Shown piece by piece: positions 4,065 through 61,539 of a DNA stretch of 64,000 bases (position 1 is its first letter; every line of letters begins with the position of its first letter). The stretch lies in the NCBI GenBank assembly GCA_027371535.1, contig DAHXMV010000004.1, positions 3,666 to 67,665 of the forward strand, in the 5' to 3' direction. The notes below the pieces were generated by a model. That model was not told the DNA's origin, did not search any database, and worked only from the letters and a program-made list of their open reading frames with translations. The stretch comes from Candidatus Amesbacteria bacterium. Lineage in GTDB: Bacteria > Patescibacteriota > Microgenomatia > CAZETR01 > Amesbacteraceae. Position numbers and translations under genes: made by a program.

Positions 4065-4138
4065 GGGGCGGGTGGAGGGATTCGGACCCTCGATAGTCCG
4101 CTCACAACGGACTGTGTTGCCTTTACACTACACCTGCC
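4065..4138 (-). tRNA. tRNA-His (anticodon GTG), with encoded G-1
   Basis: Manual fold of the reverse complement: G-1, acceptor GCAGGTG/CACCCGC (one A.C mismatch at 3:70), D-stem GTGT/ACAC, anticodon stem GTCCG/CGGAC with loop TTGTGAG, T-arm GAGGG-TCCGAAT-CCCTC, discriminator C73. The 3' tail is CCT, so CCA is not encoded. Confidence 0.75.
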
Positions 4139-4141
4139 ATT

Positions 4142-4363
4142 TTATTTACCGGGTTCCCCCGGATAAGGTATTGAGGTAGACTTTTGGGAAAGATCCTCAT
4201 CACGATCAGATATTAATAAAGTCGGGTCGGACTTGATTATTCCGGCGATCCAATCGTCAACTAGTTGATCTGGTGTACGGGGATCGTAAACAAAATTGGG
4301 CGGTTTGATCCTGGACCAATCAATTTTTAACCCTTTAGGAATTTCATTAATCATGTTTTTCAC
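4142..4363 (-). CDS. Hypothetical small acidic protein (73 aa)
   Basis: ORF only; no recognisable motif. Confidence 0.3.
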   Translation of the reverse strand: MKNMINEIPKGLKIDWSRIKPPNFVYDPRTPDQLVDDWIAGIIKSDPTLLISDRDEDLSQKSTSIPYPGEPGK

Positions 4364-4380
4364 CTCCTTTGAGGTAAATT

Positions 4381-4419
4381 AAATAAAAAAGCCTCCGTCC
4401 ACCAAAGGCACAAGAGGCT
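4381..4419 (-). terminator. Rho-independent terminator (second of a tandem pair) downstream of the 4617-5291 gene
   Basis: On the minus strand: AGCCTC...GAGGC hairpin followed by TTTTTTATTT. Confidence 0.55.
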
Positions 4420-4425
4420 AAACCA

Positions 4426-4452
4426 CAAAAAAAGCTGTGTCCAACACAGCCA
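4426..4452 (-). terminator. Rho-independent terminator (first of a tandem pair)
   Basis: Perfect hairpin GCTGTGT-TGGA-ACACAGC followed by TTTTTTT on the minus strand. Confidence 0.65.
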
Positions 4453-4616
4453 AATTTTATTTTTGTCTGGCTCGTTCCTATTGGAGGATGAATTCAGATG
4501 GAGGATTTTTACAGTTCTCCTTCTGTCTGATATTTGGTCAGCAGCTTTGGGATCGTGACTCCCATGCAAACGCTTTCACGAATTATTGTTAAGATACACC
4601 TATTAACCTATAGTTG

Positions 4617-5291
4617 TCAAGGGGTAGGGGTAGCCGGCGGGGTAGGATAAATGTACAGGTCGGTAATTGACGGTACAGCCGCTGGTTTGGCGATAATAAC
4701 TACCAGACTGCCGATTTTGACGTCCGTGCTTTTGAGTGTAGCCGGTTTGCCGTTTTTAGTGGTAGTTACAGTGGTATCTGAAAACAACCGGCCGGTAAAA
4801 TTGTCTCCGGTTGAAGTGGTGAGTTTGATGGTATTGCCAATTGATGTCACCATTCCCCAGACAGCCTGTCTTTTTTCCGCCGGAGGTGAAGCAATGACCA
4901 GCAGGCGTTTGGCAGTCATATTTCCTGAACCGTCGACGTCTCCCATCACCAGAATATAATCGCCTGTTTTCAGGTCGGCAGGGGTGCCGTCGCTATTGTC
5001 TTTCAGCTTGATGGCCGTATCGGTGGTAACCAGGGCAGACCTGTTTTGACCTGCATAATTGACCAAATTTACGGTAGCTTCGGTTTTGGAAGAAATACTG
5101 CCGACAAAAGCTTTTTTAGAAATATCCTGTTTAATCTGAGCCAGCTCCTCGCTGACTTTCTGTTTTACTGAATTTCTCAACTGATCAGCACTATCGGAAG
5201 CTGTCTGTGCGAATGCGGGGACGGAATGTAAAATGTAAAATGTAAAAAGTAAAATTAGAACAGGATAAATTTTAAATTTTAAATTATGCAT
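4617..5291 (-). CDS. Secreted/surface protein of unknown function with a signal peptide and a Thr/Pro-rich C-terminus
   Basis: N-terminal hydrophobic signal peptide (KIYPVLILLFTFYILHSVPAFA) and a C-terminal PTPPATPTP linker-like tail. No catalytic motif is visible. Confidence 0.45.
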   Translation of the reverse strand: MHNLKFKIYPVLILLFTFYILHSVPAFAQTASDSADQLRNSVKQKVSEELAQIKQDISKKAFVGSISSKTEATVNLVNYAGQNRSALVTTDTAIKLKDNSDGTPADLKTGDYILVMGDVDGSGNMTAKRLLVIASPPAEKRQAVWGMVTSIGNTIKLTTSTGDNFTGRLFSDTTVTTTKNGKPATLKSTDVKIGSLVVIIAKPAAVPSITDLYIYPTPPATPTP

Positions 5292-5292
5292 T

Positions 5293-5739
5293 TTAAATTT
5301 TACTGGTGGTATAAGTTACCAGGAGTTTAGCGACTCCGGAATGGCCGTTTTGATCAAAAGCCGTAGCTGTAATCCGGTTATAGCCCCCGTCAAGTTTGAT
5401 GTCAGCGGAGAAGGCCCCGGTGGTATCAGCTGTAAGAATGTTTTCTCCGGTATCGTAGGTGAGGGCCACGACGGCGTTAGGAACGGTTTTGCCGGTGACG
5501 GTGAGCGAGTCTGATGAAAATAGCGATTCATCGTCCGGCGAAGTGAATGAAATGGCCAACTGCGGCGGGGGAGTAGGGGAAACCTGAGCAGACGGAGAAG
5601 GGGAGACTTTTGCGGCAGATATTGCCGGTTTGCCCAAGGGGTGGTTTTTCAGACTGTTGTTGGCGGTCCAGATCCCGAACGTGATGATCAGACCCAATAT
5701 AAAACCCACTGAAACGGCCAGAAATACTTCTTTATTCAT
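5293..5739 (-). CDS. Membrane-anchored protein with a Pro/Ser-rich linker and a bacterial Ig-like/beta-sandwich domain
   Basis: N-terminal TM helix, an SPSPSAQVSPTPPPQ linker, then a beta-rich domain (TVTGKTVPNAVVALTY...ITATAFDQNGHSG) typical of Big-like domains. Confidence 0.4.
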   Translation of the reverse strand: MNKEVFLAVSVGFILGLIITFGIWTANNSLKNHPLGKPAISAAKVSPSPSAQVSPTPPPQLAISFTSPDDESLFSSDSLTVTGKTVPNAVVALTYDTGENILTADTTGAFSADIKLDGGYNRITATAFDQNGHSGVAKLLVTYTTSKI

Positions 5740-5814
5740 AGCTGTCTTGGAAGAGATTAATCAACAACCGTCTGATTGTCAAGTCACCCTTTGGGTGTGC
5801 TACAATGCTAAATT

Positions 5815-6453
5815 ATGGAAATCACATATTTAGGACATGCCAGTTTTAAAATAAAAGGCAAACAGAAAACGGTGGTTACCGATCCGTACGGTGAACAGGT
5901 GGGTAAATATCCAAAAGATGTTGAGGCGGATATTGTGACTGTTTCCCATGGGCATTTTGACCACAATGCGGTTGACAGGGTCAAGGGAACGCCGTTTGTA
6001 ATTAACGGGTCCGGAGAGTACGAAGTCGGAGGTATTTCCGTAATCGGTATGCCGACATATCACGATGACCAGCAAGGGGCCCAGAGAGGCCAAAATACGG
6101 TGTTTATTATTGAAATTGACGGCCTCAGGGTGGCCCACCTGGGGGACCTGGGCCATAAATTTTCAGATGCACAACTGGAAGACATGGGACCGATAGATGT
6201 ACTTATGCTGCCCGTCGGCGGTTTTTATACCATAGATGCCAAAACAGCAAAAGAAGTGACCGGCCAGGTTGATCCGTGGGTGGTGATTCCCATGCATTAT
6301 GTGATGGCAGGTATGGGTGTGGATAAGATCGCCCCGCTGGATCAGTTCCTTTCCGAAATGGGCAAGACGGGAATAGTACCCGTACCCAAATATTCGGTAT
6401 CCGTAGACAAATTACCGGAAGAATTGCAGGTAGTGGTACTTGAAAAAAAGTAG
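5815..6453 (+). CDS. MBL-fold metal-dependent hydrolase (UPF0173-like)
   Basis: The SHGHFDHN metallo-beta-lactamase His motif and the N-terminus MEITYLGHASFKIKG are characteristic of the UPF0173 family. Confidence 0.7.
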   Translation: MEITYLGHASFKIKGKQKTVVTDPYGEQVGKYPKDVEADIVTVSHGHFDHNAVDRVKGTPFVINGSGEYEVGGISVIGMPTYHDDQQGAQRGQNTVFIIEIDGLRVAHLGDLGHKFSDAQLEDMGPIDVLMLPVGGFYTIDAKTAKEVTGQVDPWVVIPMHYVMAGMGVDKIAPLDQFLSEMGKTGIVPVPKYSVSVDKLPEELQVVVLEKK

Positions 6454-6480
6454 GAGTCAGTGTAAGAGTAACTCACATAT

Positions 6481-7800
6481 ATGGCAGAGTTGAAAGTCCC
6501 TCCGCATTCGCAAACGGCCGAACAATCGGTGATCGGGGCACTGCTTTTGGACAGGGATGCAGTGATTGCGGTAGTAGAGTTTCTCAAACCGGAACATTTT
6601 TATGAGGAGAGACATCAGAAAATTTTTGAGATAGTACTTGATCTCTACCAGGAGAGAGAACCGGTGGATATTGTAACGGTCACCGAGAAGCTTAAGAAAA
6701 GCAAGGATTTAAAGATCATAGGCGGGGCGGAATATCTGAGCAGCCTGGTGAATATGGTGCCGACTTCGGCGCACGCAGAACATTATGGACGCCTGGTGCG
6801 GGATGACTACACTAAAAGACAGTTGATTTCGGCAGCAGCCAAAATCTCAGACATGTCATTTGATGATTCCGGGGATGTGAGAAACATTCTGGATAATGCC
6901 GAATCCACGGTATTTGCCTTGGCACAGCAGCACTTAAAGCAGGTATTTACCCCGGTGAAAAACATTCTGGTCGAATCATTCGACAGACTGGATGAATTGC
7001 ATAAAAGTGCGGGGAGCTTAAGGGGGGTGCCCACCGGTTATACGGATCTGGATGAAACTCTGGCCGGAATGCAGGACTCAAACCTGCTGATACTGGCAGC
7101 CAGACCGGGAGTGGGAAAAACAGCATTAGCCCTGAATATTGCCCAAAACGCGTCTTTTAAAAGCCGTCTGCCTGTCGGGTTTTTCTCGCTGGAAATGAGT
7201 AAGGAGGAATTGATGGACCGGCTGCTGGTGTCCCAGGCGGAGATTGACGCCTGGAAAATGAAAACCGGCAGGCTGGATGAAGAAGAATTTACCAAATTAT
7301 CAGATGCGATGGGGGAGCTATATGAAACGCCGCTTTTTATTGATGATACCCCGGGGATGTCAATTCTGGAAATGCGGACCAAAGCCCGGAGACTGCAGGC
7401 AGAACACGGATTAAAACTGATAATTGTGGATTATCTGCAGCTCGCCCGTCCGACAAGGAATCTGGATAACCGGGTACAGGAGGTGTCGGAGATTTCCCAG
7501 GGTTTGAAAAATCTGGCCCGGGAACTGAAAATACCGGTACTGGCTTTGTCCCAGTTGTCCCGGCAGGTGGAAGCCAGAGGAATTAAAAGGCCGCAACTGG
7601 CAGACTTAAGGGAATCGGGAGCGATTGAACAGGATGCCGATGTGGTGATGTTTTTATGGCGGGAAAATGATGAAGATCTGGAGAACATGAGTCTGGATAT
7701 AGCCAAACACAGGAACGGACCATTAAAGTCCATTAAACTCCGTTTCAGGGGGGACAGAATCAAGTTCTACTCGGTAGAAGGCAAACGGAAAGAGAAGTAG
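6481..7800 (+). CDS. dnaB: Replicative DNA helicase DnaB (no intein)
   Basis: N-terminal DnaB domain (PPHSQTAEQSVIGALLLD), Walker A ARPGVGKTALALNIA, and an H4 motif region. The 439-aa length is standard. Confidence 0.92.
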   Translation: MAELKVPPHSQTAEQSVIGALLLDRDAVIAVVEFLKPEHFYEERHQKIFEIVLDLYQEREPVDIVTVTEKLKKSKDLKIIGGAEYLSSLVNMVPTSAHAEHYGRLVRDDYTKRQLISAAAKISDMSFDDSGDVRNILDNAESTVFALAQQHLKQVFTPVKNILVESFDRLDELHKSAGSLRGVPTGYTDLDETLAGMQDSNLLILAARPGVGKTALALNIAQNASFKSRLPVGFFSLEMSKEELMDRLLVSQAEIDAWKMKTGRLDEEEFTKLSDAMGELYETPLFIDDTPGMSILEMRTKARRLQAEHGLKLIIVDYLQLARPTRNLDNRVQEVSEISQGLKNLARELKIPVLALSQLSRQVEARGIKRPQLADLRESGAIEQDADVVMFLWRENDEDLENMSLDIAKHRNGPLKSIKLRFRGDRIKFYSVEGKRKEK

Positions 7801-7801
7801 A

Positions 7802-7960
7802 TCAGCGGTACCAGTAGCCGGTAGCTACAAAGACAAATACGGCCAGGCAAAGGACAAAAACCAGCAGGAAAACGATCTCCAGAAAAATCCTGGCTGTTTC
7901 GGCTTTGACCTGAACCGGACGTTTAGACGGCAGTTTTTTGGCGGGCAGCTTTTTGGCCAT
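7802..7960 (-). CDS. Small (52 aa) single-pass membrane protein with a Lys-rich N-terminus
   Basis: Manual translation: MAKKLPAKKLPSKRPVQVKAETARIFLEIVFLLVFVLCLAVFVFVATGYWYR. It lies just past dnaB and falls below the ORF-track size cutoff. Confidence 0.25.
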   Translation of the reverse strand: MAKKLPAKKLPSKRPVQVKAETARIFLEIVFLLVFVLCLAVFVFVATGYWYR

Positions 7961-7963
7961 AAA

Positions 7964-8128
7964 TTATTTAACTTCCTGGACGACCAGGTGACCGGAACTG
8001 GCCCCGGCAGCTAACTGCTGCCTTTCCTGAACCAGTAGGACGGAGAATGCCATAATAAAGAGGGTGACTAAAATAATAAACAAACCCAGGAGACGGTATT
8101 TAACAATAGTTTTTTTCTGATTGGCCAC
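7964..8128 (-). CDS. Small (about 54 aa) membrane protein with a GTG start, upstream of and tandem with the previous small ORF
   Basis: Manual translation: VANQKKTIVKYRLLGLFIILVTLFIMAFSVLLVQERQQLAAGASSGHLVVQEVK. Its stop lies 4 nt before the next ATG. Confidence 0.2.
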   Translation of the reverse strand: MANQKKTIVKYRLLGLFIILVTLFIMAFSVLLVQERQQLAAGASSGHLVVQEVK

Positions 8129-8199
8129 TAATCCAGTATGAAACTCTTATATCATTCTTGTCAAGAGTTTTATTGTCTTAAATATATCTGTGGTCATAA

Positions 8200-8532
8200 T
8201 TAACCAATCATAAAATGTGAACCGATGTCATGAATAGCAATTGCCATAATGACAAGTAATACACAAATAAAGGTTAAGAACGTTGTTAGTAGTAAAAAAG
8301 CTTTGAAATGTTTGTTGTTTCTTTGTCGAGTAAAAAGATAAATATAAAAAGTACTTAAAAAAATGACAGGACCCGATATTGAAGCTGAAATTCGGTAAAT
8401 ATTTGCACTACCGTTATTCATTATTCCGTTGACATCTATATAACCCCAGTAGAAAAGACTAAAACCGAATAATTGGTATACAGGTATCCAGAAAGGAAAA
8501 GCCTGTTTTTTAGTCGGGGATATAATCGGCAT
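8200..8532 (-). CDS. Hypothetical AT-rich small membrane protein (3 TM), immediately adjacent to the tRNA-Leu 3' end
   Basis: About 28% GC against about 47% locally. Hydrophobic segments are present; no motif was recognised. Confidence 0.35.
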   Translation of the reverse strand: MPIISPTKKQAFPFWIPVYQLFGFSLFYWGYIDVNGIMNNGSANIYRISASISGPVIFLSTFYIYLFTRQRNNKHFKAFLLLTTFLTFICVLLVIMAIAIHDIGSHFMIG

Positions 8533-8541
8533 ATTTATTAT

Positions 8542-8626
8542 TAAAATGTGCCCAGGGTGGGAGTCGGACCCACACGAGCTTTTGGCTCATTAGTTTTTGA
8601 GACTAACGCGTATACCATTCCGCCAC
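8542..8626 (-). tRNA. tRNA-Leu (anticodon CAA), type II with a long variable arm
   Basis: Manual fold of the reverse complement: acceptor GCCCAGG/CCTGGGC, anticodon stem TTAGT/ACTAA with loop CTCAAAA, variable arm TGAGCCAAAAGCTCG, T-arm GTGGG-TCCGACT-CCCAC, discriminator A. Confidence 0.75.
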
Positions 8627-8658
8627 CTGGGCAAACTTGAAAACAATTATCCCACAGT

Positions 8659-9369
8659 GTGATGGTTCGTGTAAAATGGGGAGTTATGTGGCCGGCGATT
8701 GTACATTTGGGGAAATTCCAGATCACCTGGTGGTGGTTGTATGTGTTGACGGCGTTGGTCAGTAGCAGTTTTTTAATCTGGCGACGGCTGAGGGAAGATT
8801 ATCCGGATGAGGAAATATTTACTTTTAACGTGTTTGTGCTGGCTGCCGGAATAGCCGGTGCCCTGGCTGCCGGCTGGCTGGAACGTGGATATTTCGGGGC
8901 TTTTTCCGGATGGGGAATGTTTGTTACCGGTACAGCCGCCATTTGGCAATGGTGCAAAAGAAAGAAGTGGGATTTTTGGGATTTATCTGATTATCTGGCG
9001 GTATTGTCCATGTGGCTATGGTTACTCGGCAGCCTGGCTCTGGGGCCGGAACGGAAATTGGATATGGGGTTTGCGGCCGGGGGAATTATTATCCTGTCGG
9101 GGGTGAAAAATAATTATCGGAAGTTCAGATGGTACAAATCTGGTAAAGTGGGTTTGACAGGGTTAATCGGAGTGTTGTATTTTTGTGCGGCTGAAATTTC
9201 TGTTGCAATGCTGTCGCCAATCAAGGTATACTGGGGAGGATTGACGGCTGGCCAATGGATTTCGTCCTGGACTGCGGCTTTTACCCTGGTGGGAATATAC
9301 ATCAGGGCCGGCAGAAAACCCAGGGAGGAGTGGTGGTGGCCGGTTAAAAATAAAATATATGGCAGCTAA
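8659..9369 (+). CDS. Polytopic membrane protein, possibly a short Lgt-like (prolipoprotein diacylglyceryl transferase-like) protein
   Basis: N-terminal LGKFQITWWWLYVLTALVSSSFLIWRR resembles the Lgt Y-G-L-M-Y-L...RR helix. The canonical Lgt GNFIN signature was not found, so the call is tentative. Confidence 0.3.
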   Translation: MMVRVKWGVMWPAIVHLGKFQITWWWLYVLTALVSSSFLIWRRLREDYPDEEIFTFNVFVLAAGIAGALAAGWLERGYFGAFSGWGMFVTGTAAIWQWCKRKKWDFWDLSDYLAVLSMWLWLLGSLALGPERKLDMGFAAGGIIILSGVKNNYRKFRWYKSGKVGLTGLIGVLYFCAAEISVAMLSPIKVYWGGLTAGQWISSWTAAFTLVGIYIRAGRKPREEWWWPVKNKIYGS

Positions 9370-9742
9370 AAAACACCCGATTATTGCGTATCCGGAAGAA
9401 GTCCTGCGTCCGGTCAGGGATTACCTGTCCGGCCGGTTATTTGGCCTGGAAAGGAGAAAAAAAGAGCTGGTTAAGTCGGATCCTTATGAAGATAAGGCCA
9501 GACTGGATGACAATGCGGCAATGGATGCGGATGCGGCTGAAACTACGGGACATATGGAGGTATCAGCTGTTAAACAGGCGATGGACCGGAGCATAATTCA
9601 GGTCCGGAAAGCTCTGTCGAGGATAAAATTCGGTAAGTATGGAGTGTGTGAAAAATGCGGCAAGATGATAGATACGGACAGACTGATGATTATGCCGGAA
9701 ACGACAATCTGTGTTGACTGTGAAAGAAGAAGGGAAAAATAA
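9359..9742 (+). CDS. DksA/TraR-family C4 zinc-finger protein
   Basis: C-terminal CEKCGKMIDTDRLMIMPETTICVDCE (CxxC-17-CxxC) preceded by a coiled-coil region, as in the DksA/TraR fold. Confidence 0.7.
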   Translation: MAAKKHPIIAYPEEVLRPVRDYLSGRLFGLERRKKELVKSDPYEDKARLDDNAAMDADAAETTGHMEVSAVKQAMDRSIIQVRKALSRIKFGKYGVCEKCGKMIDTDRLMIMPETTICVDCERRREK

Positions 9743-9758
9743 CCAGGAGTTATGGGTT

Positions 9759-10469
9759 ATGAGTTGGGAGCCTAAAATAATATTTGAGGATGAGAGCCTG
9801 TGTGTGATTAATAAACCGGCAGGGATGGTGGCGAATAACTCTCAAACCAGCATAGAAGAAACCGTACAGGATTGGTTTGAGAAAAATTACAAGATACAAA
9901 ATCCAAGATACAAAGATACGGAGTTCGGGCAGAAGGGAGGAGTGGTGCACCGGCTGGATAAGGAAACCAGCGGGGTAATGATTCTGGCAAAGACGGAAGC
10001 CGCATACGGGCAACTGAAAATCCAGTTTCTGGAAAGGAAAACGGTGAAGAAATACCTGGCGCTGGTACATGGAGTAATCAATCCGGAAAAGGGGATAATC
10101 AGCCTGCCGGTGGTCAGAAACCCCAAAGCCTGGGGAAAATTTACCGTCGGGTCAGATTTATCCAGGACGGCAATTACGGAATGGAATTTATTAAAGAAAT
10201 TTCCGGAGTTGGCATTTTTGGAGGTACAACCTCTGACGGGCAGGACGCATCAGATCAGGGTCCATATGAAATATCTCGGCTATCCGATAGTTTCCGATCC
10301 GTTGTATGCCGGACGGAAACAATATCAGAGCGACCTGAAATGGTGCCCGAGATTATTTTTACATGCGAATACAATTACCCTGGCACATCCGGTGACAGGT
10401 GCGGTGATGACCTGGACCGGGGAACTACCCGACGATTTACAACAAGTGCTGGCAAAACTGGTAAACTGA
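9759..10469 (+). CDS. RluA-family pseudouridine synthase (no S4 domain)
   Basis: Catalytic HRLDKETSGVMILAKT motif (Asp in HRLD). The start is set at the Met (MSWEPKI) after the DksA stop; the longer ORF from 9711 overlaps DksA. Confidence 0.8.
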   Translation: MSWEPKIIFEDESLCVINKPAGMVANNSQTSIEETVQDWFEKNYKIQNPRYKDTEFGQKGGVVHRLDKETSGVMILAKTEAAYGQLKIQFLERKTVKKYLALVHGVINPEKGIISLPVVRNPKAWGKFTVGSDLSRTAITEWNLLKKFPELAFLEVQPLTGRTHQIRVHMKYLGYPIVSDPLYAGRKQYQSDLKWCPRLFLHANTITLAHPVTGAVMTWTGELPDDLQQVLAKLVN

Positions 10470-10477
10470 ATAAAAGT

Positions 10478-12160
10478 ATGCCGGATGCGTTTACTTCGAT
10501 GGCGGTGATTTTGGGTTTGGCGGCTGCCGGCGGGGTTTTGGCCAGGGCCGTCAGGCAGCCGCCCCTGGTGGGGTATATTCTGGCGGGAGTTTTGCTCACG
10601 TTTTTCGGAGGGAGTATGGGTCAGGGCCAGATTAAAGGGTTACTGGAAACAATGAGCCGGTTGGGAGTCACACTGTTATTATTTTTGGCGGGGCTGGAAC
10701 TGCCTTTGGAAGAACTGAAAAGAATGGGCCGGGTGTCGCTGGTCACGGGTCTCGGACAAATAGCCATTACATCCGTGCTGGGTTTTGGTTTAGCAAGACT
10801 TTTAGGTTTCGGCAGCGTGTCGGCGGTATATATCGGTCTGGCGATGACTTTCGGCAGTACGATACTGGTGGTGAAGCTATTGTCGGAAAAAGGGGAGTTG
10901 CAGAGCCTGCATGGGAAAATTGCGGTGGGATATCTGTTAGTCCAGGATTTTGTAGCCATAGGGTTACTGGTGATTCTGGCCGGATACAACAGCGGTAAAT
11001 TGGATTTACCCGGTTTAGTACTTGTTTTGACCAAAGGGATATTGATGGTGACAACGGCATTATGGGTATCGGAAAAATTCATGGGCCGGATTATGAATTA
11101 CCTGGCCAAGTCGACGGAATTGTTATTTATTTCTTCCATAGGCTGGTGTCTCGTTGTGGCGGCGGTAGTAGCATCACCTTTATTGGGGTTTTCGGTGGAA
11201 ATCGGCGGGTTTCTGGCCGGTCTGGCCCTGGCCAATGCGGCAGAACAATCCCAGATAATATCCAGAGTCAGGCCCCTGAGAGATTTTTTTCTGACCTGGT
11301 TTTTTGTGGCTTTGGGGTCAAATCTGGGCTGGACGGGATGGGAAAAGATCCTGTTTCCGGGGCTGGTAATGACGATTTACGTATTTATCGGCGGACCGGT
11401 AATTGTAATGGCGATTTTGGGGCTGTTAGGTTACAAGAAACGGACCTATTTTATGGCCAGTCTGGCGGTGGCCCAGGTATCAGAGTTTTCCCTGATTCTG
11501 GTGACCAATGCGGTGAATAACGGCCAGGTAGGCCCGGAAATACAGACTCTGGTGACGGCTGTCGGGGTGGTAACCATGACCCTGTCCACTTATCTGATCT
11601 GGCATGCCGATAGCGTGTATAGGAAATTGTCCGGGGTTGTGGGGATATTTGAGAGAAAGGATGCCAAAGAAGATGCTGGGTTTAACCAAATGAAAGAACA
11701 TGTGGTGCTTTTCGGACATAACCGGGTAGGCAGCCGGATCCGGCCGGTGCTGGAAAAAACCGGCTGGGAAGTGGTGGTAGTAGATTTTAATCCGGAAATT
11801 GTTGAAAGTCTCAAAAATTCCGGTGTCAGGGTAATTTATGGAGACATGTCAGATCAGGAATTATACGAAAAGCTGGCTCTTAACGAGGCCAGCCTGATAA
11901 TTTCAACGGTTCCGGATATTACGGAAAATCTGTATTTATTAAAAAGTCTGGGGAAAAGGAAAAGTCAGATGCTGATTTTATCGGCGTCAGATATATCCGA
12001 AGCCCACAGGCTTTATAAGGCAGGGGCTGATTATGTCCTGGTTCCGCATAGTGTGGGCGGGGAATTTTTGGCCCAGACGTTTTTGCATCATAGCCATGGG
12101 CGGGAAGCAAGTGCCAGGCTGGAAAATCTCAGAGACTATTTAAGTAAAGTGACATTATAA
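10478..12160 (+). CDS. CPA2-family (Kef-type) monovalent cation/H+ antiporter with a C-terminal RCK/TrkA-N domain
   Basis: Twelve-TM Na_H exchanger-type core, then a Rossmann GHNRVGSRIRPVLEKTGWEVVVVDFNPE motif (GxGxxG, KTN NAD-binding). The start was moved to the Met at 10478; the upstream 99 codons of the ORF overlap RluA out of frame. Confidence 0.8.
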   Translation: MPDAFTSMAVILGLAAAGGVLARAVRQPPLVGYILAGVLLTFFGGSMGQGQIKGLLETMSRLGVTLLLFLAGLELPLEELKRMGRVSLVTGLGQIAITSVLGFGLARLLGFGSVSAVYIGLAMTFGSTILVVKLLSEKGELQSLHGKIAVGYLLVQDFVAIGLLVILAGYNSGKLDLPGLVLVLTKGILMVTTALWVSEKFMGRIMNYLAKSTELLFISSIGWCLVVAAVVASPLLGFSVEIGGFLAGLALANAAEQSQIISRVRPLRDFFLTWFFVALGSNLGWTGWEKILFPGLVMTIYVFIGGPVIVMAILGLLGYKKRTYFMASLAVAQVSEFSLILVTNAVNNGQVGPEIQTLVTAVGVVTMTLSTYLIWHADSVYRKLSGVVGIFERKDAKEDAGFNQMKEHVVLFGHNRVGSRIRPVLEKTGWEVVVVDFNPEIVESLKNSGVRVIYGDMSDQELYEKLALNEASLIISTVPDITENLYLLKSLGKRKSQMLILSASDISEAHRLYKAGADYVLVPHSVGGEFLAQTFLHHSHGREASARLENLRDYLSKVTL

Positions 12161-12168
12161 TTCAACCG

Positions 12169-12999
12169 ATGAGAAAATTTTTGGGTTGGGTGGTTCTTGT
12201 CGGCGTTTTGGTAGCCGGGGCAATACTGGCAGGCCAGGTAGCCAACGCCTGGAACAACAGACACTGGGACGGACGGAACAGGTTTACCCTCATTTCCATG
12301 AATAAAAAAGATCAGACAGCCGAGCTTTACAGTATAGATCCGGAATCAGGACAGGCTATTCATCTGGTATTGCCGTCGGAAATGGAAGTGGACACCATCG
12401 GCGGCAGGGGAGTATGGAAGATCAGTGCAGTAGTGTCCCTGGCAGATAAATACGGACCGGTTTGGGCAGCTGATTCCATTGCCAATTTCCTGGATATTCC
12501 TTATACGGCAGTGAAAGAAAAGATCGATGTTTGGGATAAACTATCCTGGTGGAATCTGAGCCGGGGGGTAGATTTTCAGGACATCAGTTTAAAAAATACC
12601 GATCTGGTAAGGAAAATTGAGACACCGGACGGAGAGACAGTATTGGGGTTGACCAGCTGGTGGCAGAATAAAGCCGGTGATTTGTTTTATTCATCAAATT
12701 TAGCCAAGGAGGAGCTGAATGTGGAAGTATATAACACCACCAACGTGACCGGGTTGGCATCCAGAGTAGCCCAGCTTTTGGAAAATGCGGGGGTAAAAGT
12801 TACCATCACCGGAGAAGCTGGCGAAATAGCCGGCAGATGTCAGGTGGCCAGCTCACATCAGATGGTGTCAGATCCCGGGGTTGAATGGATTACCCGGTTT
12901 ATGTCATGCAGTCGGATAGAAAAAAATGATCTGGATACAAAACAGGTGCAGATATATTTAGGTAATGATTATGTCAGCTGGCTGAAGGGAGCGTTCTAG
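12169..12999 (+). CDS. Membrane-anchored protein with a LytR_C (LytR/CpsA/Psr C-terminal) domain
   Basis: N-terminal TM helix. C-terminal VEVYNTTNVTGLASRVAQLLENAGVKV matches the LytR_C consensus (V.V.NGtg..GlA......L...G..v). Confidence 0.45.
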   Translation: MRKFLGWVVLVGVLVAGAILAGQVANAWNNRHWDGRNRFTLISMNKKDQTAELYSIDPESGQAIHLVLPSEMEVDTIGGRGVWKISAVVSLADKYGPVWAADSIANFLDIPYTAVKEKIDVWDKLSWWNLSRGVDFQDISLKNTDLVRKIETPDGETVLGLTSWWQNKAGDLFYSSNLAKEELNVEVYNTTNVTGLASRVAQLLENAGVKVTITGEAGEIAGRCQVASSHQMVSDPGVEWITRFMSCSRIEKNDLDTKQVQIYLGNDYVSWLKGAF

Positions 13000-13006
13000 C
13001 AGGCAA

Positions 13007-13813: not shown

Positions 13814-13897
13814 AACTATACTCCAGCAAAGTATATATGGCGTTTAGGAAAATGCAACAGCAAAATGAACCGGGCTTGGTGGTAAAATCAGGATGTC

Positions 13898-14626: not shown

Positions 14627-14637
14627 CAATTGAAACT

Positions 14638-15408: not shown

Positions 15409-15417
15409 AATATAGCT

Positions 15418-15708
15418 ATGTCTTTGGAGTCTGTTGAGTCGTTGTCCGATGAAAATACGGTCCGGAAGGTTAAAGGAGGATATTTGTTAGTCACCCCCAC
15501 CGGAATGGAAATCAAATTAGAGCGTAATCGGACTACTCCCGGAACCTGGGGCTGGTGGGAAAAAAACAGATGGGGGAGGAAGACTGCCTGGCATCAGGTT
15601 GATGTGCATGGAGTTTCAGAGAATACGACAACAAGCCAATCTCAAACAAGCCAACTGCCAAAGCTACCGGATTTGGACACTGATAATATGTGGTGGCTAA
15701 AAGATTAG
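15418..15708 (+). CDS. Hypothetical small Trp-rich protein
   Basis: ORF only. Its stop overlaps the first copy of an 11-bp direct repeat. Confidence 0.3.
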   Translation: MSLESVESLSDENTVRKVKGGYLLVTPTGMEIKLERNRTTPGTWGWWEKNRWGRKTAWHQVDVHGVSENTTTSQSQTSQLPKLPDLDTDNMWWLKD

Positions 15709-16103
15709 GGGATAGAGGAGAGATAGCCCTATAGTATTATTGGTTTTTTCACGAGGTTAGGGGATAGTTTTCACATTTTATCGCGATAAATCGGCATAAA
15801 TAGCTCCAGATGATATAGTTTGATGGTAAAATATTTACACACCGGAGTAGCTGCTGATGTGGATAAGTGTCAGACGGTTAGAAGGAGTGAAGTAAGAGTA
15901 GTCAGTTATTAGTTATCAGAGTAATTAATTAAAAGTTAATAGAAGTAAATAAATAAACTAATAAACTACTAAGATTATATATTAGTATTCTGATCCTCTC
16001 TTTGTTCCGATAGATGTAATTTACATATATAAATAACTGAGTATAATATCTCTAACACTCGGTTTCTCATGTTGAGAGAAGTCTGAGCATTACAGCCAGT
16101 TAG

Positions 16104-29764: not shown

Positions 29765-31738
<1,974 letters not shown>

Positions 31739-56672: not shown

Positions 56673-56696
56673 CCGGTCAATTATACAATACCCGGA

Positions 56697-57295: not shown

Positions 57296-59041
57296 TTAAA
57301 TAATCTTATCCTTTATTTCCTTTTGGATATTATCAATAAAAGTTTCTATCGGGAAAGGGCCATCCGGCTTGCCTGATCTGGCACGTTCGGTGACGGTTTG
57401 GGAAGCAACTTCTTTGTCACCGACTACTAGCATATAGGAGACTTTTTCCAATTGGGCGTCGCGGATACGGCCTGTCAGTGGTTCATTTCGGGAATCCAAT
57501 TCCGCCCGGATTCCGGCAGCCAACAATTTTTGATAAATATCTTTAGCGTATTCAAGGTGTTTTTCGGTTATCGGCAGGACTTTTACCTGGACCGGCGTCA
57601 GCCAGGTGGGAAAATTTCCGGCAAAATGTTCGAGGAGAACGCCTACAAACCGTTCACTTGAACCCAGGGGGGCCCGGTGCTGAACTACTACATATTTTTC
57701 AGATCCGTCTCTGTCGATATATTTGAGATCAAAGCGGCGGGGCATAAACAGGTCTATCTGGTTGGTGGATATACCATATTCGGTACCGATGGCGGATTTG
57801 ATTTTAAAGTCCATTTTCGGGCCGTAATGAGCGGCGCCTTCATTCTGAACGATATATTTGACTCCCGATTTATCCAATGCCTGACGGGACATGGCTTCGG
57901 CTTTTTGCCATAGCTCTTCCTCGCCGTGATATTTATCCATTTTGGCCGGATCTCTGAGACATAGGGCAATGTAATAATCTTTTAAACCCAATGTGTCGTA
58001 ATAATATTTGTGCAGGTTAATAATCTCTACAAATACGTCTACCGACTGCTCCTCGGTGCAGTACACATGGGCGTCATTTTGGACAAATACCCGGGGTCTT
58101 AAAATACCATTTAAAGCTCCGGCATTTTCGTACCTGGCCACCGTACCGTATTCGGCCAATTTAACGGGTAATTCACGATAACTTCTGGTTTTATGTTTGA
58201 AGATCATATGATGGAAGGGGCAATTCATAGGCTTGATATAGTAGGTATCCTCCTGATCATCTCCGGGGACGGTGACTTTGTACATTTCGTCTTCAAAATA
58301 GGGGACATGGGCAGACTTGATGAACAGCTCCCTTTTGGTAATAAAAGGTGTGCTGACGCGCTGATAACCCCATTTATTTTCCGTTTCCCGGCCCCATTTT
58401 TCCAGCTCGTCTTTGATGATTGTGCCTTTGGGAAGCCATAAAGGCAGACCGGGTCCGACTTCTTCGGCAAAAGTAAATATTTCCAGATCCTTACCGAGTT
58501 TTCTGTGATCGCGTTTTTTAACTTCCTCCAGCTGATTTAAATAATCAGTCAAACCTTTGGCTGTCGGCCAGCAGGTTCCATAAATACGAGTAAGCATTTT
58601 GTTTTTTTCAGATCCGCGCCAGTAAGCCCCGGCGACGGAGAGCAACTTAAAATGTTTGAGGTCGGATTTGGGATGGGGGGTGTGGCCTCCGCGACAAAGA
58701 TCTGTAAAATCTCCCGATTTATAAAAAGTGAGCACTTCTCCCCTATTCGTGATTTCATTAATCAGTTCCAATTTATAAGGATCATGGGCAAATTGTTTTT
58801 TAGCCTCATCGGAATTAATTTCAATTTTTTCAAAACCGGTCCAGGTTTTGGATATGTCATGCATTTTTGCCTCCAAGCCTGGGAAATCGGCTTCGGAAAT
58901 TTTGGTGTCGCCAAAATCAAAATCATAATAAAAACCGTTTTCGATAGCCGGGCCGAGAGTCGGCATGGCCTGAGGCCATAAAGAAGTGACAGCAGCTGCC
59001 AGTAAATGCGAGCAGGAATGATTTAGATTTTCGAGATTCAT
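57296..59041 (-). CDS. thrS: Threonine--tRNA ligase (lacks the N-terminal TGS domain)
   Basis: Editing-domain HSCSHLLA, class II catalytic core (FRPRVFVQNDAHVY-like motifs) and a C-terminal anticodon-binding domain. 581 aa. Confidence 0.92.
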   Translation of the reverse strand: MNLENLNHSCSHLLAAAVTSLWPQAMPTLGPAIENGFYYDFDFGDTKISEADFPGLEAKMHDISKTWTGFEKIEINSDEAKKQFAHDPYKLELINEITNRGEVLTFYKSGDFTDLCRGGHTPHPKSDLKHFKLLSVAGAYWRGSEKNKMLTRIYGTCWPTAKGLTDYLNQLEEVKKRDHRKLGKDLEIFTFAEEVGPGLPLWLPKGTIIKDELEKWGRETENKWGYQRVSTPFITKRELFIKSAHVPYFEDEMYKVTVPGDDQEDTYYIKPMNCPFHHMIFKHKTRSYRELPVKLAEYGTVARYENAGALNGILRPRVFVQNDAHVYCTEEQSVDVFVEIINLHKYYYDTLGLKDYYIALCLRDPAKMDKYHGEEELWQKAEAMSRQALDKSGVKYIVQNEGAAHYGPKMDFKIKSAIGTEYGISTNQIDLFMPRRFDLKYIDRDGSEKYVVVQHRAPLGSSERFVGVLLEHFAGNFPTWLTPVQVKVLPITEKHLEYAKDIYQKLLAAGIRAELDSRNEPLTGRIRDAQLEKVSYMLVVGDKEVASQTVTERARSGKPDGPFPIETFIDNIQKEIKDKII

Positions 59042-59160
59042 AATAAAAAACCACCTCTTTTGTCAGACCCGGGGTTCCATCTGACTACTATGGTGGCTTA
59101 ATTTTTTATTTAACCTCGGCAGGTGGTGAATCTGCCTGATAACGTTAAATATCCATTAAG

Positions 59161-60240
59161 CTAAATTTTAATACTAAAGAGAAACTTTTCAAGTACCCGG
59201 TAAAATTGGCCCAGACTTTTCAGGTCGACCCATTCGTAATCCCCATGCAAACCTTCACCGGCAGGTCCAATATCTAAAGCGGTACAACCGGCTGCGGAAT
59301 AATGACGGGCGTCGGAAGCCCCGTGGAATTTAACATAATCGGCTTTATTACCCGTAACCAATGTGACAGTTTCAGAAAGTAATTTAACCAATGGGTGATT
59401 TTTGTCTGCGTGGTTATAAGGCTCATCTTCAATGATTTCAATTACGGTATCAGAATAAATGAGATGCGATTTGATTTTAGCAATGATGTTTTTTGATAAA
59501 TCTGTGGAGATATGGCGAATATCCATCGTAACACCGGCGGTATCGGGTACCTGGTTGACGGTGTTTCCGCCCACGATAACGCCAAAATTGCAGGTGGTCT
59601 TCCAGGCCTCTTTTAGGGGGACAGGAAAGAGTTTTTTGATTGCTGTTATTTCTTCGGATAGTTTGGTGATGGCGTTGACGCCGTTCCAGAGAAATGCACC
59701 ATGTGCTTTTTTGCCGTGGGCCGTCAGTTTAATCCATAAAACACCCTTGGTATCACAACACAGACCCAAATCGGAAAATTCACCACAAAGATAAAAATCG
59801 GTCAGAATACCTTGGCTAATCTGATATTTGGTGCCGAAGTGGCCACCGATTTCCTCATCGGTCACCAGTTGGAGGGCCAGCGGGTAATTTACCCCGGGGG
59901 CCGCATTTTTAAAAGCGATAATTTCCGCCGCCCCGGCAGCTTTCATATCAATGGCTCCCCTACCGGTTAATTTTTTGTCTTTAACTTTGGCAGAATATTG
60001 TTCCGGTCTTCCGGGGACGACATCCAGATGGGCATTTAATATGACTTTGAACCTGCCATTTTCCGGCCACCGGTTATAAATCAAAAGACTTGGGCAGTCA
60101 TGATTGATGAATTTTTTGAATTTAAATCCGGGAAGTGTTTTCAGAGCCGTATCCAAAACTTCATGCAATTTTTCCGGGGATTCCCTGGTGGATGGCACTG
60201 AAATTAAATCAGAAGCCAAAGATACTATGCTATCTAGCAT
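59161..60240 (-). CDS. M20-family metallopeptidase/deacylase (ArgE/DapE-like)
   Basis: Metal-binding HLDVVPG and D..GAID (GRGAIDMK), plus a C-terminal GASDARHY and dimerisation-domain pattern. Confidence 0.65.
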   Translation of the reverse strand: MLDSIVSLASDLISVPSTRESPEKLHEVLDTALKTLPGFKFKKFINHDCPSLLIYNRWPENGRFKVILNAHLDVVPGRPEQYSAKVKDKKLTGRGAIDMKAAGAAEIIAFKNAAPGVNYPLALQLVTDEEIGGHFGTKYQISQGILTDFYLCGEFSDLGLCCDTKGVLWIKLTAHGKKAHGAFLWNGVNAITKLSEEITAIKKLFPVPLKEAWKTTCNFGVIVGGNTVNQVPDTAGVTMDIRHISTDLSKNIIAKIKSHLIYSDTVIEIIEDEPYNHADKNHPLVKLLSETVTLVTGNKADYVKFHGASDARHYSAAGCTALDIGPAGEGLHGDYEWVDLKSLGQFYRVLEKFLFSIKI

Positions 60241-61319
60241 AAATCTAAAATATGCGATGTAATATCCCTGATTTTATCACTTACTGCCGGATCAAGATGA
60301 ATATGATGCAAGCTTTCGTCATAGTGGTTGAATGTCAGACGAAAACCAACCTGCCATTTGGCCGGCGAGCTATGGGTGTTTTTCCAGGGACGGATCATGG
60401 CGGGTGAGAAGTCTGAGTTAATCAGATCACTGACAGTTTCCAAATCATCGGCATTACAATAAGCGGTGATAATTTGTAAACCGATTTCGGAGGATATTTT
60501 TGAAATCCGGGCAAGCTGATTCGGTTTGGTAATAAAACCCGAGGCATCGGGTTTAATCATAATAATTTCCCCGTTTTCAACAGATACCTGCTCAATATCC
60601 TCAGTTATTGAGGCATGTTTTAGCTGAATTAGTTCCAAATTAAGAGCTATTCTTTGTTTTACTTCTTTGGCAGAAGTCAAATATGCCCTGACAGAATCGC
60701 AATTTTTGGGAGCGGGATTTAATGATTCAGCCAGGTTCTTTGCCAAAGTCCTGACTGTCTCTTTGGGCCACTGCGTTAGTGCGGAATACAAATCATTTTG
60801 GGTAAGATTCAGACTGGTCATATGGACCATAGTTTCCCGACCGGGACCCAAATCATCGTTTCCGTAAATATGGTTGTATACCACATGTTTACCGGTTTCA
60901 AGGCTGATGGGTATTAATCCTGCATACAAAGCCGCTCTTTGCATGCCAATCTGGTCTCCCCGGACATCTGCCCAGGGGATACGCTGTCTGTCAGAAGCTA
61001 TTTGAAAGAGTTCAGCTGAAAGGTGCTTGGCAAAGCCGTTTTTTCTGGCGCAGGGATTGACCAAGACCCGTTTTATTTCACTCATGGGTTCTTCGGAATA
61101 TCCCAAGACGGCCGTAGCTAAAATTCCCAAATCCCGGGAATCTACGACCAGACGGATCTCACCATTTAATATGGCATCGGCGACACTTTCGGGATTGTAA
61201 ACCGATTCGAACGGGTATCCGGGGATTCCGATTTTGGCCAGGGCGGCCAGTTGGAAGGCGTCGTTCGGTAAGGCCGGTCTGATTTGATGATTTGGGTTTT
61301 CAAGAGACATAGTTGTCAC
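60234..61319 (-). CDS. GNAT N-acyltransferase domain fused to an uncharacterised C-terminal domain
   Basis: N-terminal 150 aa with GNAT motif A-like RVLVNPCARKNGFAKHL. The C-terminal roughly 200 aa are unrecognised. There is a 7-nt overlap with the downstream M20 gene. Confidence 0.4.
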   Translation of the reverse strand: MTTMSLENPNHQIRPALPNDAFQLAALAKIGIPGYPFESVYNPESVADAILNGEIRLVVDSRDLGILATAVLGYSEEPMSEIKRVLVNPCARKNGFAKHLSAELFQIASDRQRIPWADVRGDQIGMQRAALYAGLIPISLETGKHVVYNHIYGNDDLGPGRETMVHMTSLNLTQNDLYSALTQWPKETVRTLAKNLAESLNPAPKNCDSVRAYLTSAKEVKQRIALNLELIQLKHASITEDIEQVSVENGEIIMIKPDASGFITKPNQLARISKISSEIGLQIITAYCNADDLETVSDLINSDFSPAMIRPWKNTHSSPAKWQVGFRLTFNHYDESLHHIHLDPAVSDKIRDITSHILDLC

Positions 61320-61320
61320 T

Positions 61321-61347
61321 AAAAAACCCCGCTTAACGGGGTTTTGG
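61321..61347. terminator. Bidirectional rho-independent terminator
   Basis: AAAAAA-CCCCGC-TTAA-CGGGGTTTT: A-run and T-run on either side of a GC hairpin. Confidence 0.6.
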
Positions 61348-61467
61348 TTATAAGTAATTGAATGGTTTTTGTTAATTACAACCCAAAACCCCCGGACGGG
61401 GTAAAAAAGAAAGCAAAATAGCCTCTTTGGGTTGCTGACATGATGTAATTATAACACTAACTTAGGG

Positions 61468-61539
61468 TGGGCACTAAGGGTTTCGCACCCCTGACCTTCT
61501 CAATGTCAATGAGACGCTCTACTCCTGAGCTAAGTGCCC
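61468..61539 (-). tRNA. tRNA-Val (anticodon GAC)
   Basis: Manual fold of the reverse complement: acceptor GGGCACT/AGTGCCC, D-arm GCTC-AGGAGTA-GAGC, anticodon stem TCTCA/TGAGA with loop TTGACAT, T-arm AGGGG-TGCGAAA-CCCTT (one G.U), discriminator A. The T-loop is unusual (G at position 55). Confidence 0.6.

What the first reader, a model, noticed from the sequence alone, without database searches (positions are those of the whole stretch)
4065..61539. All three tRNAs visible in the window lack the near-universal U55 in the T-loop
The T-loops read TCCGAAT (His), TCCGACT (Leu) and TGCGAAA (Val): 54T, then C/C/G at 55, then 56C. Canonical bacterial tRNAs have T54-U55-C56, with U55 modified to pseudouridine by TruB and forming the reverse-Hoogsteen pair with G18. 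All other T-arm features (G53-C61, A58) are canonical, so the register is probably right. A lineage-wide loss of U55 would imply loss or redundancy of TruB and an altered D/T-loop interaction.
Basis: seen in the sequence. Interest (0 to 1): 0.55.

Follow-up and report, generated by a model that had tools for sequence, protein, structure and literature searches.

The report
Mosaic loss of tRNA U55
In this ultra-small (CPR/Patescibacteria) bacterium and its relatives, about a third to a half of otherwise normal tRNA genes carry C or G in place of the "universal" U55, and G55 always comes with a matching G18-to-A change; other tRNAs on the same contig are canonical, so U55 has not been lost genome-wide.

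Summary
ARAGORN and the Rfam tRNA covariance model find exactly three tRNAs in the window: His-GUG, Leu-CAA and Val-GAC. In the model's register their T-loops read UCCGAAU, UCCGACU and UGCGAAA, so position 55 is C, C and G. G53-C61, U54, C56 and A58 are canonical.

On the same 83,446-bp contig, 8-15 kb beyond the window end, tRNA-Phe, Gly-GCC and Leu-UAG have normal UUC loops.

Position 55 is a mosaic in this Microgenomates-like CPR lineage. Non-U55 tRNAs number 3/6 in this organism, 7/26 in close relatives, 3/31 in more distant relatives and 2/13 in other CPR. None of 43 control tRNAs from other bacteria lacks U55.

U55C arose repeatedly and independently. G55 is always paired with A18 (Val-GAC, Gly-GCC, Tyr-GUA), which indicates a compensated 18:55 tertiary pair. 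The Val-GAC gene is 71/71 identical between species whose ThrRS is only 77% identical, so these genes are under selection.

TruB status could not be tested. I rate this a real, apparently undescribed natural variant of the tRNA elbow, of moderate interest.

The parts
4065..4137 (-). tRNA-His(GUG). T-loop UCCGAAU at 4080-4086, C55 at 4085. D-loop AAAGGCA with G18 at 4121. G-1 is encoded at 4138 and the discriminator is C73. No CCA is encoded.
   Evidence: ARAGORN. Rfam model 51.9 bits. Sequence, coordinates. The cloverleaf is the minimum-free-energy fold. An identical gene is in the independent assembly L081/L162.
8548..8632 (-). tRNA-Leu(CAA), class II with a long variable arm. T-loop UCCGACU at 8562-8568, C55 at 8567. 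D-loop GAAUGGUAUA with G18 at 8616.
   Evidence: ARAGORN. Rfam model 58.0 bits. Sequence, coordinates. Orthologues in relatives at 50-72% HisRS identity mostly have UUC.
61466..61539 (-). tRNA-Val(GAC). T-loop UGCGAAA at 61481-61487, G55 at 61486. D-loop AGGAGUA at 61520-61526 with A18 at 61523 and G19 retained. This is the co-varying 18:55 tertiary pair.
   Evidence: ARAGORN. Rfam model 62.9 bits, which puts A at model G18. Sequence, coordinates. The gene is 71/71 identical in L168/L174 (ThrRS 77%), and L164 (ThrRS 82%) has the same A18/G55.

Best explanation
These are functional elongator tRNA genes of a CPR/Patescibacteria (Microgenomates-like) bacterium in which position 55 is no longer fixed as U. 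Shown: position 55 is a mosaic of U, C and G among the tRNAs of one genome and of its relatives. U55C has arisen several times independently. U55G is always accompanied by G18A. The rest of the T-loop scaffold is untouched (G53-C61, U54, A58, C56 with G19, and a 7-nt loop). The variant genes are conserved across species. Inferred: the T-loop fold tolerates G or C at its second position, as generic non-tRNA T-loops (UGNRA/YGNRA) do. With G55, the O6/N1-H edge would replace the O4/N3-H edge of U55, and A18 would replace G18 as its partner, giving a compensated tertiary pair. With C55, G18 is kept and the 18:55 contact must be altered or weakened. These tRNAs cannot carry pseudouridine-55, so they must fold and work without TruB catalysis. 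Relaxed selection on position 55 in small, reduced CPR genomes is the most economical cause. That all three tRNAs in the window are variants is a sampling coincidence in a genome where roughly a third to a half of the tRNAs are variants.
For: The covariance model confirms the register and gives high tRNA scores for the window tRNAs and for the variant tRNAs in relatives. Same contig: 3 variant and 3 canonical tRNAs. Counts of unique tRNAs lacking U55: 3/6 in this organism, 7/26 in close relatives (ThrRS 70-82%), 3/31 in HisRS relatives, 2/13 in other CPR and 0/43 in non-CPR or unclassified bacteria. Fisher's exact test of CPR against the rest gives p = 0.001. Independent origins: in a neighbour-joining tree of HisRS, each of the three tRNA-His C55 lineages (window, L096, L127) has a sister with U55, and Leu(CAA) C55 occurs separately in the window and in L116. 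Covariation: all 6 unique G55 tRNAs (Val-GAC three times, Gly-GCC, Tyr-GUA twice) have A18-G19, and all 113 U55 or C55 tRNAs have G18-G19. Gly(GCC) of this organism and of L174 differ at only 4 of 71 positions: G18A, U55G and the compensatory stem pair 51:63. Purifying selection: Val(GAC) is 71/71 identical between species with 77% ThrRS identity, and Pro(UGG) C55 is shared by L164 and L174. T-loop tolerance: in non-tRNA T-loops G is preferred at position 2 and C or U is tolerated (bioRxiv 10.1101/2022.12.26.521914).
Against: No expression, aminoacylation or modification data exist for these tRNAs. Only about 80 kb of the genome was seen, so canonical second copies of His, Leu(CAA) or Val(GAC) cannot be excluded. 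Numbers are small, and the tRNAs of a lineage are not fully independent samples. Most T-loops were read from ARAGORN folds, and only the key ones were checked with the covariance model. For the two tRNA-Tyr genes the model's D-loop alignment is ambiguous (posterior about 0.7), and the A18 assignment rests on position-by-position comparison with the E. coli tRNA-Tyr D-loop, recalled from memory, and on retention of C56. The hydrogen-bond geometry of A18:G55 and G18:C55 is inferred, not modelled. The cause (drift, TruB loss or positive selection) is not resolved.
Confidence: 0.7

Rival explanations
1. One reading: the lineage has lost U55 from all its tRNAs, because TruB was lost or became redundant.
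For: All 3 tRNAs in the window lack U55. No truB gene is in the window or in any fetched locus. The only pseudouridine synthase in the window belongs to the RluA subfamily.
Against: Three canonical UUC tRNAs lie on the same contig 8-15 kb beyond the window. In close relatives 19 of 26 unique tRNAs keep U55, and the 72%-identity HisRS relatives have U55 in His and Leu(CAA). Not finding truB in about 2.6 Mb of scattered 20-kb loci is close to what chance would give, so it is uninformative.
Confidence: 0.05
2. The C55 tRNAs are repaired after transcription. A cytidine deaminase would convert C55 to U, which might then be isomerised to pseudouridine, so the mature tRNAs would be canonical.
For: Nine of the 15 non-U55 tRNAs are C55 and keep G18 unchanged, as expected if U55 is restored in the RNA. 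From my own knowledge, not checked here: C-to-U or C-to-pseudouridine tRNA editing exists in prokaryotes (archaeal CDAT8 at position 8; Vibrio TrcP at position 32).
Against: No deaminase candidate was identified. Editing cannot explain G55, which is instead compensated genomically by A18. Repeated independent U-to-C changes are equally expected from simple tolerance.
Confidence: 0.1
3. The variant genes are pseudogenes or spare, non-translational tRNAs (as in the staphylococcal cell-wall tRNA-Gly), with canonical copies elsewhere in the genome.
For: Staphylococcal non-proteinogenic tRNA-Gly lack G18, G19, U55 and C56 (PMC4574755). Only about 80 kb of the genome was examined.
Against: The variants span six anticodons: His-GUG, Leu-CAA, Val-GAC, Val-CAC, Pro-UGG and Gly-UCC, plus Gly-GCC in L174. 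His-GUG is normally the only tRNA-His. The genes sit at conserved syntenic sites next to hisS and thrS. Model scores are 50-66 bits. G-1 of tRNA-His is encoded. Val(GAC) is 100% identical across species, and stem changes are compensatory. G19:C56 is retained, unlike in the staphylococcal case.
Confidence: 0.05
4. The variant T-arms come from integrated mobile elements, whose attachment sites replace the 3' half of a tRNA gene.
For: In L169 the C55 tRNA-Val(CAC) at 6754-6828 is overlapped by the end of a large serine recombinase gene at 6765-8324.
Against: There is no integrase or recombinase next to any of the three window tRNAs. The nearest, a XerC/D-like gene at 16104-17084, is more than 7 kb from tRNA-Leu. 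Replacing the 3' half cannot produce the matching A18 change in the 5' half.
Confidence: 0.04
5. Sequencing or assembly error.
For: None found.
Against: The same sequences appear in independent assemblies: ENA ERZ27233560, NCBI GCA_021836005.1 and Logan SRR13170412. They also appear in different species and samples.
Confidence: 0.01

Closest known systems
Canonical bacterial elongator tRNA (Rfam RF00005) with the U54-pseudouridine55-C56 loop
   Same: Full cloverleaf, 7-nt T-loop, G53-C61, U54, A58, and C56 paired with G19. Identity features are present: G-1 and C73 for His, and a long variable arm for Leu. The genes sit in the syntenic positions of their canonical orthologues.
   Different: Position 55 is C or G instead of the U described as the most universally conserved modified site in tRNA (PMC7912444). 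In the G55 tRNAs position 18 is A instead of G. These tRNAs cannot be TruB substrates at position 55.
Staphylococcal non-proteinogenic tRNA-Gly used for peptidoglycan bridges (PMC4574755; PMC7826273)
   Same: Bacterial tRNAs that naturally lack U55. From memory, the classical S. epidermidis sequences read G-U-G-C in place of G-T-pseudouridine-C, which would be the same U54-G55-C56 as here. I did not verify this.
   Different: The staphylococcal tRNAs lose G18, G19, U55 and C56 together, are extra copies of one isoacceptor, and are kept out of translation. Here G19:C56 is retained, only 18:55 changes, and the variants cover many amino acids, including the sole expected tRNA-His.
Generic T-loop motif of riboswitches, rRNA and RNase P (UGNRA/YGNRA; bioRxiv 10.1101/2022.12.26.521914)
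   Same: UGCGA (Val, Gly) and UGCAA (Tyr) fit UGNRA exactly. C at position 2 is reported as tolerated in some contexts, which matches UCCGA and UCCAA.
   Different: Those T-loops dock onto other receptors, not onto a tRNA D-loop. tRNA T-loops are singled out in that work as the U-at-position-2 class.
Eroded tRNAs of animal mitochondria and reduced endosymbionts (abstracts of PMC2777451 and PMC9427863 as listed; endosymbiont tRNA erosion from my own knowledge)
   Same: Small genomes with probably weak selection, and loss of 'invariant' elbow nucleotides.
   Different: Here the erosion is confined to one position. Loop sizes and all other tertiary partners are intact, and the purine substitution is compensated, which points to maintained structure rather than decay.

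Membership tests
tRNA (Rfam RF00005) | Cloverleaf that scores above the family's gathering threshold in the covariance model | tested here: met
   51.9, 58.0 and 62.9 bits against a threshold of 29. Variant tRNAs in relatives score 48-66 bits.
Canonical elongator tRNA elbow | U54-A58, G53-C61 and C56 paired with G19 | tested here: met
   Read directly from the model alignments for all three window tRNAs.
Canonical elongator tRNA elbow | U55 (pseudouridine-55) contacting G18 | tested here: not met
   C55 with G18 in His and Leu, and G55 with A18 in Val.
Bacterial tRNA-His | Genome-encoded G-1 opposite C73 | tested here: met
   G at window 4138 precedes G1, and the discriminator is C. G-1:C73 pairs in the minimum-free-energy fold.
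TruB (pseudouridine-55 synthase) substrates | A uridine at position 55 of the T-loop | tested here: not met
   There is no U at position 55 in the three window tRNAs. The three further tRNAs on the same contig do have U55.
   Phe(GAA), Gly(GCC) and Leu(UAG) on the same contig are canonical.
   Only about 80 kb of the genome was reachable. There was no motif or tblastn hit in the window or in 175 loci, but about one hit is expected by chance in that sample.
Non-proteinogenic / spare tRNAs (staphylococcal tRNA-Gly type) | Extra gene copies alongside a canonical isoacceptor with the same anticodon | tested here: inconclusive
   No second His-GUG, Leu-CAA or Val-GAC gene was seen in the 80 kb examined. 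The whole genome was not available.
Non-proteinogenic / spare tRNAs (staphylococcal tRNA-Gly type) | Joint loss of G18, G19, U55 and C56 | tested here: not met
   G19 and C56 are retained in every variant.
Generic T-loop motif (UGNRA/YGNRA) | Five-nucleotide core U-G-N-R-A, or Y-G/C-N-R-A | tested here: met
   Val reads UGCGA. His and Leu read UCCGA, the C-at-position-2 variant. Motif definition.

The most novel reading that the evidence does not exclude
In Microgenomates-like CPR bacteria the tRNA elbow has been partly rewired. A substantial fraction of translating tRNAs would work without pseudouridine-55. They would use either a previously undescribed A18:G55 tertiary pair, which turns the tRNA T-loop into the generic UGNRA type, or a G18:C55 contact. 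This would be possible because TruB has been lost, or its catalytic and chaperone role has become dispensable in these cells. Alternatively, C55 could be converted to U or pseudouridine by an unknown bacterial editing activity.
Probability: 0.3. Interest if true: 0.7.

Novelty: new variant of a known kind. Interest (0 to 1): 0.5.

Why it matters
U55/pseudouridine-55 and its contact with G18 are textbook invariants of tRNA, and TruB is among the most conserved RNA-modifying enzymes. A bacterial lineage in which a third to a half of ordinary elongator tRNAs lack U55 is a natural experiment on what position 55 and pseudouridine-55 are needed for. The clean double substitution G18A + U55G is directly testable in E. 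coli or in vitro. The finding also matters in practice: variant T-loops lower tRNA-detector scores, and any use of TruB as a universal marker gene in CPR genomes should be checked against it. I found no paper in the searchable library that links CPR/Patescibacteria to T-loop variation, or that describes A18 with G55.

Tried and rejected
- **Reaching the rest of the window's contig through window proteins.** Four look-ups failed or returned only tiny contigs. It finally worked through an orthologue of a methyltransferase that sits next to a tRNA cluster in a relative.
- **Looking for further tRNAs in the window.** Low-threshold or intron-allowing ARAGORN and an E-value-mode Rfam scan gave only noise inside ORFs.
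- **Searching for truB.** There was no hit. I rejected this as evidence of absence because the sample is too small.
- **Pfam/NCBIfam annotation of the window ORFs of at least 150 aa (those not nested in a larger ORF) plus one 140-aa ORF.** The only pseudouridine synthase is of the RluA subfamily, not TruB.
- **Cluster-member look-up for taxonomy.** It gave no names.
- **Three ARAGORN calls with odd T-loops** (L006 4667-4749, L067 13057-13144, L174 5932-6023). The Rfam model did not confirm them, so I excluded them from the counts.
- **T-stem composition as a correlate of the variants.** I saw no clear pattern.
- **An alternative register for Val with GG as positions 18-19.** I rejected it because it would leave no nucleotides for positions 15-17, and because the model and the 7-nt AGGGGUA D-loops of other Val(GAC) genes support A18.
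- **My simple D-loop heuristic.** It mislabels the three Val(GAC) genes as 'GG' for that reason.
Full report
**1. The observation**

ARAGORN finds three tRNA genes in the window, all on the minus strand: His(GUG) 4065-4137, Leu(CAA) 8548-8632 and Val(GAC) 61466-61539. The Rfam tRNA covariance model finds the same three at 51.9, 58.0 and 62.9 bits, against a gathering score of 29. Its alignment fixes the register:

| tRNA | T-arm | Position 55 | Window coordinate |
|---|---|---|---|
| His(GUG) | GAGGG-UCCGAAU-CCCUC | C | 4085 |
| Leu(CAA) | GUGGG-UCCGACU-CCCAC | C | 8567 |
| Val(GAC) | AGGGG-UGCGAAA-CCCUU | G | 61486 |

G53-C61, U54, C56 and A58 are canonical in all three. Relaxed ARAGORN settings and an E-value-mode Rfam scan add no credible tRNA. 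tRNA-His has an encoded G-1 and C73. His and Val fold into the cloverleaf as their minimum-free-energy structure.

In the D-loop, His and Leu keep G18-G19. Val reads AGGAGUA, and the model places A at position 18 and G at position 19.

**2. The organism**

The window is bacterial chromosome. It encodes gyrA, gyrB, an H+-pyrophosphatase, a type IV pilus operon, PBP1, RecG, DnaB, the thrS-infC-rplT-pheS-pheT block and hisS.

- The best named HisRS and ThrRS relatives are Microgenomates-group, Roizman-, Gottesman-, Woese- and Amesbacteria, and "Patescibacteria group" MAGs, at about 58-63% identity. The nearest unnamed relatives are at 74% (HisRS) and 82% (ThrRS).
- In a species-level genome collection the best ThrRS match was only 50%.
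- The same organism is present as NCBI MAG GCA_021836005.1 and as an 83,446-bp ENA contig.

**3. The decisive test: other tRNAs of the same genome**

A methyltransferase sits beside a tRNA cluster in the closest relative. Its orthologue P0286 was listed as lying on an 83,446-bp contig, and it is not encoded in the window. Looking it up returned L172, which is bases 1-16,863 of that contig. The last 1,082 nt of L172 are identical to window 62919-64000 on the reverse strand. L172 therefore extends the window by 15.8 kb.

It carries three more tRNAs, all with G18-G19:

| tRNA | T-loop | Rfam bits |
|---|---|---|
| Phe(GAA) | UUCGACU | 61.3 |
| Gly(GCC) | UUCGAAU | 70.7 |
| Leu(UAG) | UUCAAAU | 59.7 |

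That condition is met. In the 80 kb seen, the genome has 3 variant and 3 canonical tRNAs.

**4. Relatives**

I fetched 80 metagenomic loci around hisS (HisRS identity 50-72%) and loci around thrS and the methyltransferase in the closest relatives.

- The 72%-identity HisRS relatives have UUC in the orthologous His and Leu(CAA) genes.
- L164 (ThrRS 82%) has 10 tRNAs on 13 kb. Gly(UCC) and Pro(UGG) have C55, Val(GAC) has G55 with D-loop AGGAGUUA, and seven are canonical.
- L168/L174 (ThrRS 77%, GCA_964502885.1) has Pro(UGG) with C55, Gly(GCC) with G55 and D-loop AGCAGUA, Val(GAC) with G55, and six canonical tRNAs.
- L169 (ThrRS 70%) has Val(CAC) with C55 and three canonical tRNAs.

Three ARAGORN calls that the covariance model did not confirm were removed. 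Unique tRNAs lacking U55 are then as follows:

| Group | Non-U55 / total |
|---|---|
| This organism | 3/6 |
| Close relatives (ThrRS 70-82%) | 7/26 |
| HisRS relatives (50-72%) | 3/31 |
| Other CPR loci | 2/13 |
| Non-CPR or unclassified bacteria | 0/43 |

Fisher's exact test of CPR against the rest gives p = 0.001. With a background rate of a third to a half, three out of three in one window is an unremarkable draw.

**5. Evolutionary pattern**

In a neighbour-joining tree of HisRS, the three tRNA-His C55 lineages (window, L096, L127) each have a sister lineage with U55. Leu(CAA) C55 occurs separately in the window and in L116. U55C has therefore arisen repeatedly.

The variants are not decaying:

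- Val(GAC) is 71/71 identical between the window and L168, although their ThrRS proteins are only 77% identical.
- Pro(UGG) C55 is shared by L164 and L174.
- Differences between orthologues in stems are compensatory.

**6. The 18:55 covariation**

All six unique G55 tRNAs have A-G where G18-G19 should be. These are Val(GAC) in three lineages, Gly(GCC) in L174, and Tyr(GUA) in L017 and in the Parcubacteria locus L039. All 113 U55 or C55 tRNAs have G-G.

My simple heuristic mis-scores Val because of an upstream GG. The covariance model itself places A at position 18 for Val and Gly. For the two Tyr genes the model alignment is ambiguous. There the assignment rests on position-by-position comparison with the E. 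coli tRNA-Tyr D-loop, recalled from memory, and on retention of C56.

The cleanest case is Gly(GCC). The copy in this organism (L172) and the copy in L174 differ at 4 of 71 positions: G18A, U55G, and the two sides of stem pair 51:63. This is at least three independent co-substitutions of a tertiary pair.

**7. How it most likely works**

Shown:
- The T-loop scaffold is untouched and only position 55 varies (with position 18 for G55).
- G55 is compensated in the D-loop, and C55 is not.
- The variant genes are conserved.

Inferred:
- The T-loop fold accepts G or C at its second position. This matches non-tRNA T-loops, whose consensus is UGNRA/YGNRA with G preferred and C or U tolerated (bioRxiv 10.1101/2022.12.26.521914).
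- G offers an O6/N1-H edge resembling the O4/N3-H edge of U, and the partner changes from G to A to fit the larger base.
- C55 reverses donor and acceptor polarity, so the contact with G18 must be different or weaker.

[quoted passage not shown] They therefore function without TruB catalysis at that site. Relaxed selection in reduced CPR genomes is the simplest driver. Loss of TruB, a change in another factor that reads the elbow, and C-to-U editing all remain open.

**8. Rivals**

- **Genome-wide loss of U55:** refuted (section 3).
- **Assembly artefact:** excluded by independent assemblies and by other species.
- **Pseudogenes or spare copies:** unlikely, given conserved synteny, conservation, identity elements and the range of anticodons. 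Copy number could not be checked genome-wide.
- **Attachment-site replacement by mobile elements:** suggested only for L169 Val(CAC), which overlaps a serine recombinase gene. It cannot explain the A18 change in the 5' half.
- **Editing of C55:** possible for the C variants only.

**9. Comparison with what is known, and novelty**

The closest bacterial precedent for tRNAs without U55 is the staphylococcal non-proteinogenic tRNA-Gly. Those tRNAs lose G18, G19, U55 and C56 together and are extra copies kept out of translation (PMC4574755). Here G19:C56 is retained and ordinary isoacceptors are affected. Mitochondrial tRNA erosion is far more general than this single-site change.

Full-text searches found nothing that links CPR/Patescibacteria to T-loop variation, and nothing that describes A18 with G55. 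The library is incomplete, so I claim only "apparently undescribed".

**10. Verdict**

I classify it as a new variant of a known kind, with interest 0.5.

Noticed in passing
window 9711-10469 (+): An RluA-subfamily pseudouridine synthase (Pfam PF00849; NCBIfam TIGR00005, 224 bits) lies 1.1 kb from tRNA-Leu(CAA). It is not TruB. It appears to lack the N-terminal S4 domain of RluD-type enzymes, since the match starts at model position 55.
   Followed up: partly
L172 6096-6863 (same contig, about 9 kb beyond the window end); L164 2636-3379; L169 2236-3000; L174 10001-10750: A class I SAM-dependent methyltransferase of unknown function is conserved in synteny with tRNA genes across these relatives: tRNA-Leu(UAG) just downstream in all four loci, tRNA-Gly(GCC) just upstream in L172, L164 and L174. 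It could be an RNA methyltransferase.
   Followed up: no
L169 6754-6828 and 6765-8324: tRNA-Val(CAC), a C55 variant, is overlapped by the 3' end of a large serine recombinase gene. This suggests a mobile element integrated at this tRNA, so its T-arm may come from an att site.
   Followed up: no
window 4065-4067, 8548-8550, 61466-61468: None of the three tRNAs encodes the 3' CCA. After the discriminator base the sequences are CCU (His), CAU (Leu) and CCC (Val). The organism must therefore rely on a CCA-adding enzyme, which itself recognises the tRNA elbow.
   Followed up: no
window 51275-52609 (-): A beta-CASP / metallo-beta-lactamase ribonuclease resembles archaeal aCPSF1 and the Cas14-type MBL-CASP protein. 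The NCBIfam hits are below the curated cut-offs.
   Followed up: no
window 17317-18360 and 18338-19387 (+): Two tandem, slightly overlapping ATP-grasp genes resemble D-Ala-D-Ala ligase. A C39-type peptidase gene follows on the opposite strand at 19764-20360.
   Followed up: no
window 23080-31735 (-): gyrB and gyrA are separated by a 571-aa protein with no Pfam match (27964-29679) and a membrane H+-pyrophosphatase (25859-27883).
   Followed up: no
window 503-1438 (+) and 57296-59041 (-): Release factor 1 is short (311 aa; the match starts at about model position 50). ThrRS (581 aa) lacks the N-terminal TGS domain. Both look like N-terminal truncations, which would fit CPR genome reduction.
   Followed up: no
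L039 2720-4626: The 16S rRNA gene of Parcubacteria GBS-2 spans 1,907 nt for a 1,533-position model, so it carries insertions. tRNA-Ile, Tyr, Thr and Ala lie immediately downstream.
   Followed up: no
L112 309-384 and L142 5107-5179: Two tRNA-His genes of more distant Microgenomates-like relatives vary at position 54 instead (C54 in CUCAACU, A54 in AUCAUUU). Both are confirmed as tRNA by Rfam at about 55 bits. T-loop 'invariants' other than position 55 are therefore also occasionally relaxed in this group.
   Followed up: partly
L006 9568-9818: A T-box leader lies between tRNA-Val(GAC) and thrS in a Chloroflexota MAG. Rfam detected no T-box upstream of thrS or hisS in the window.
   Followed up: no
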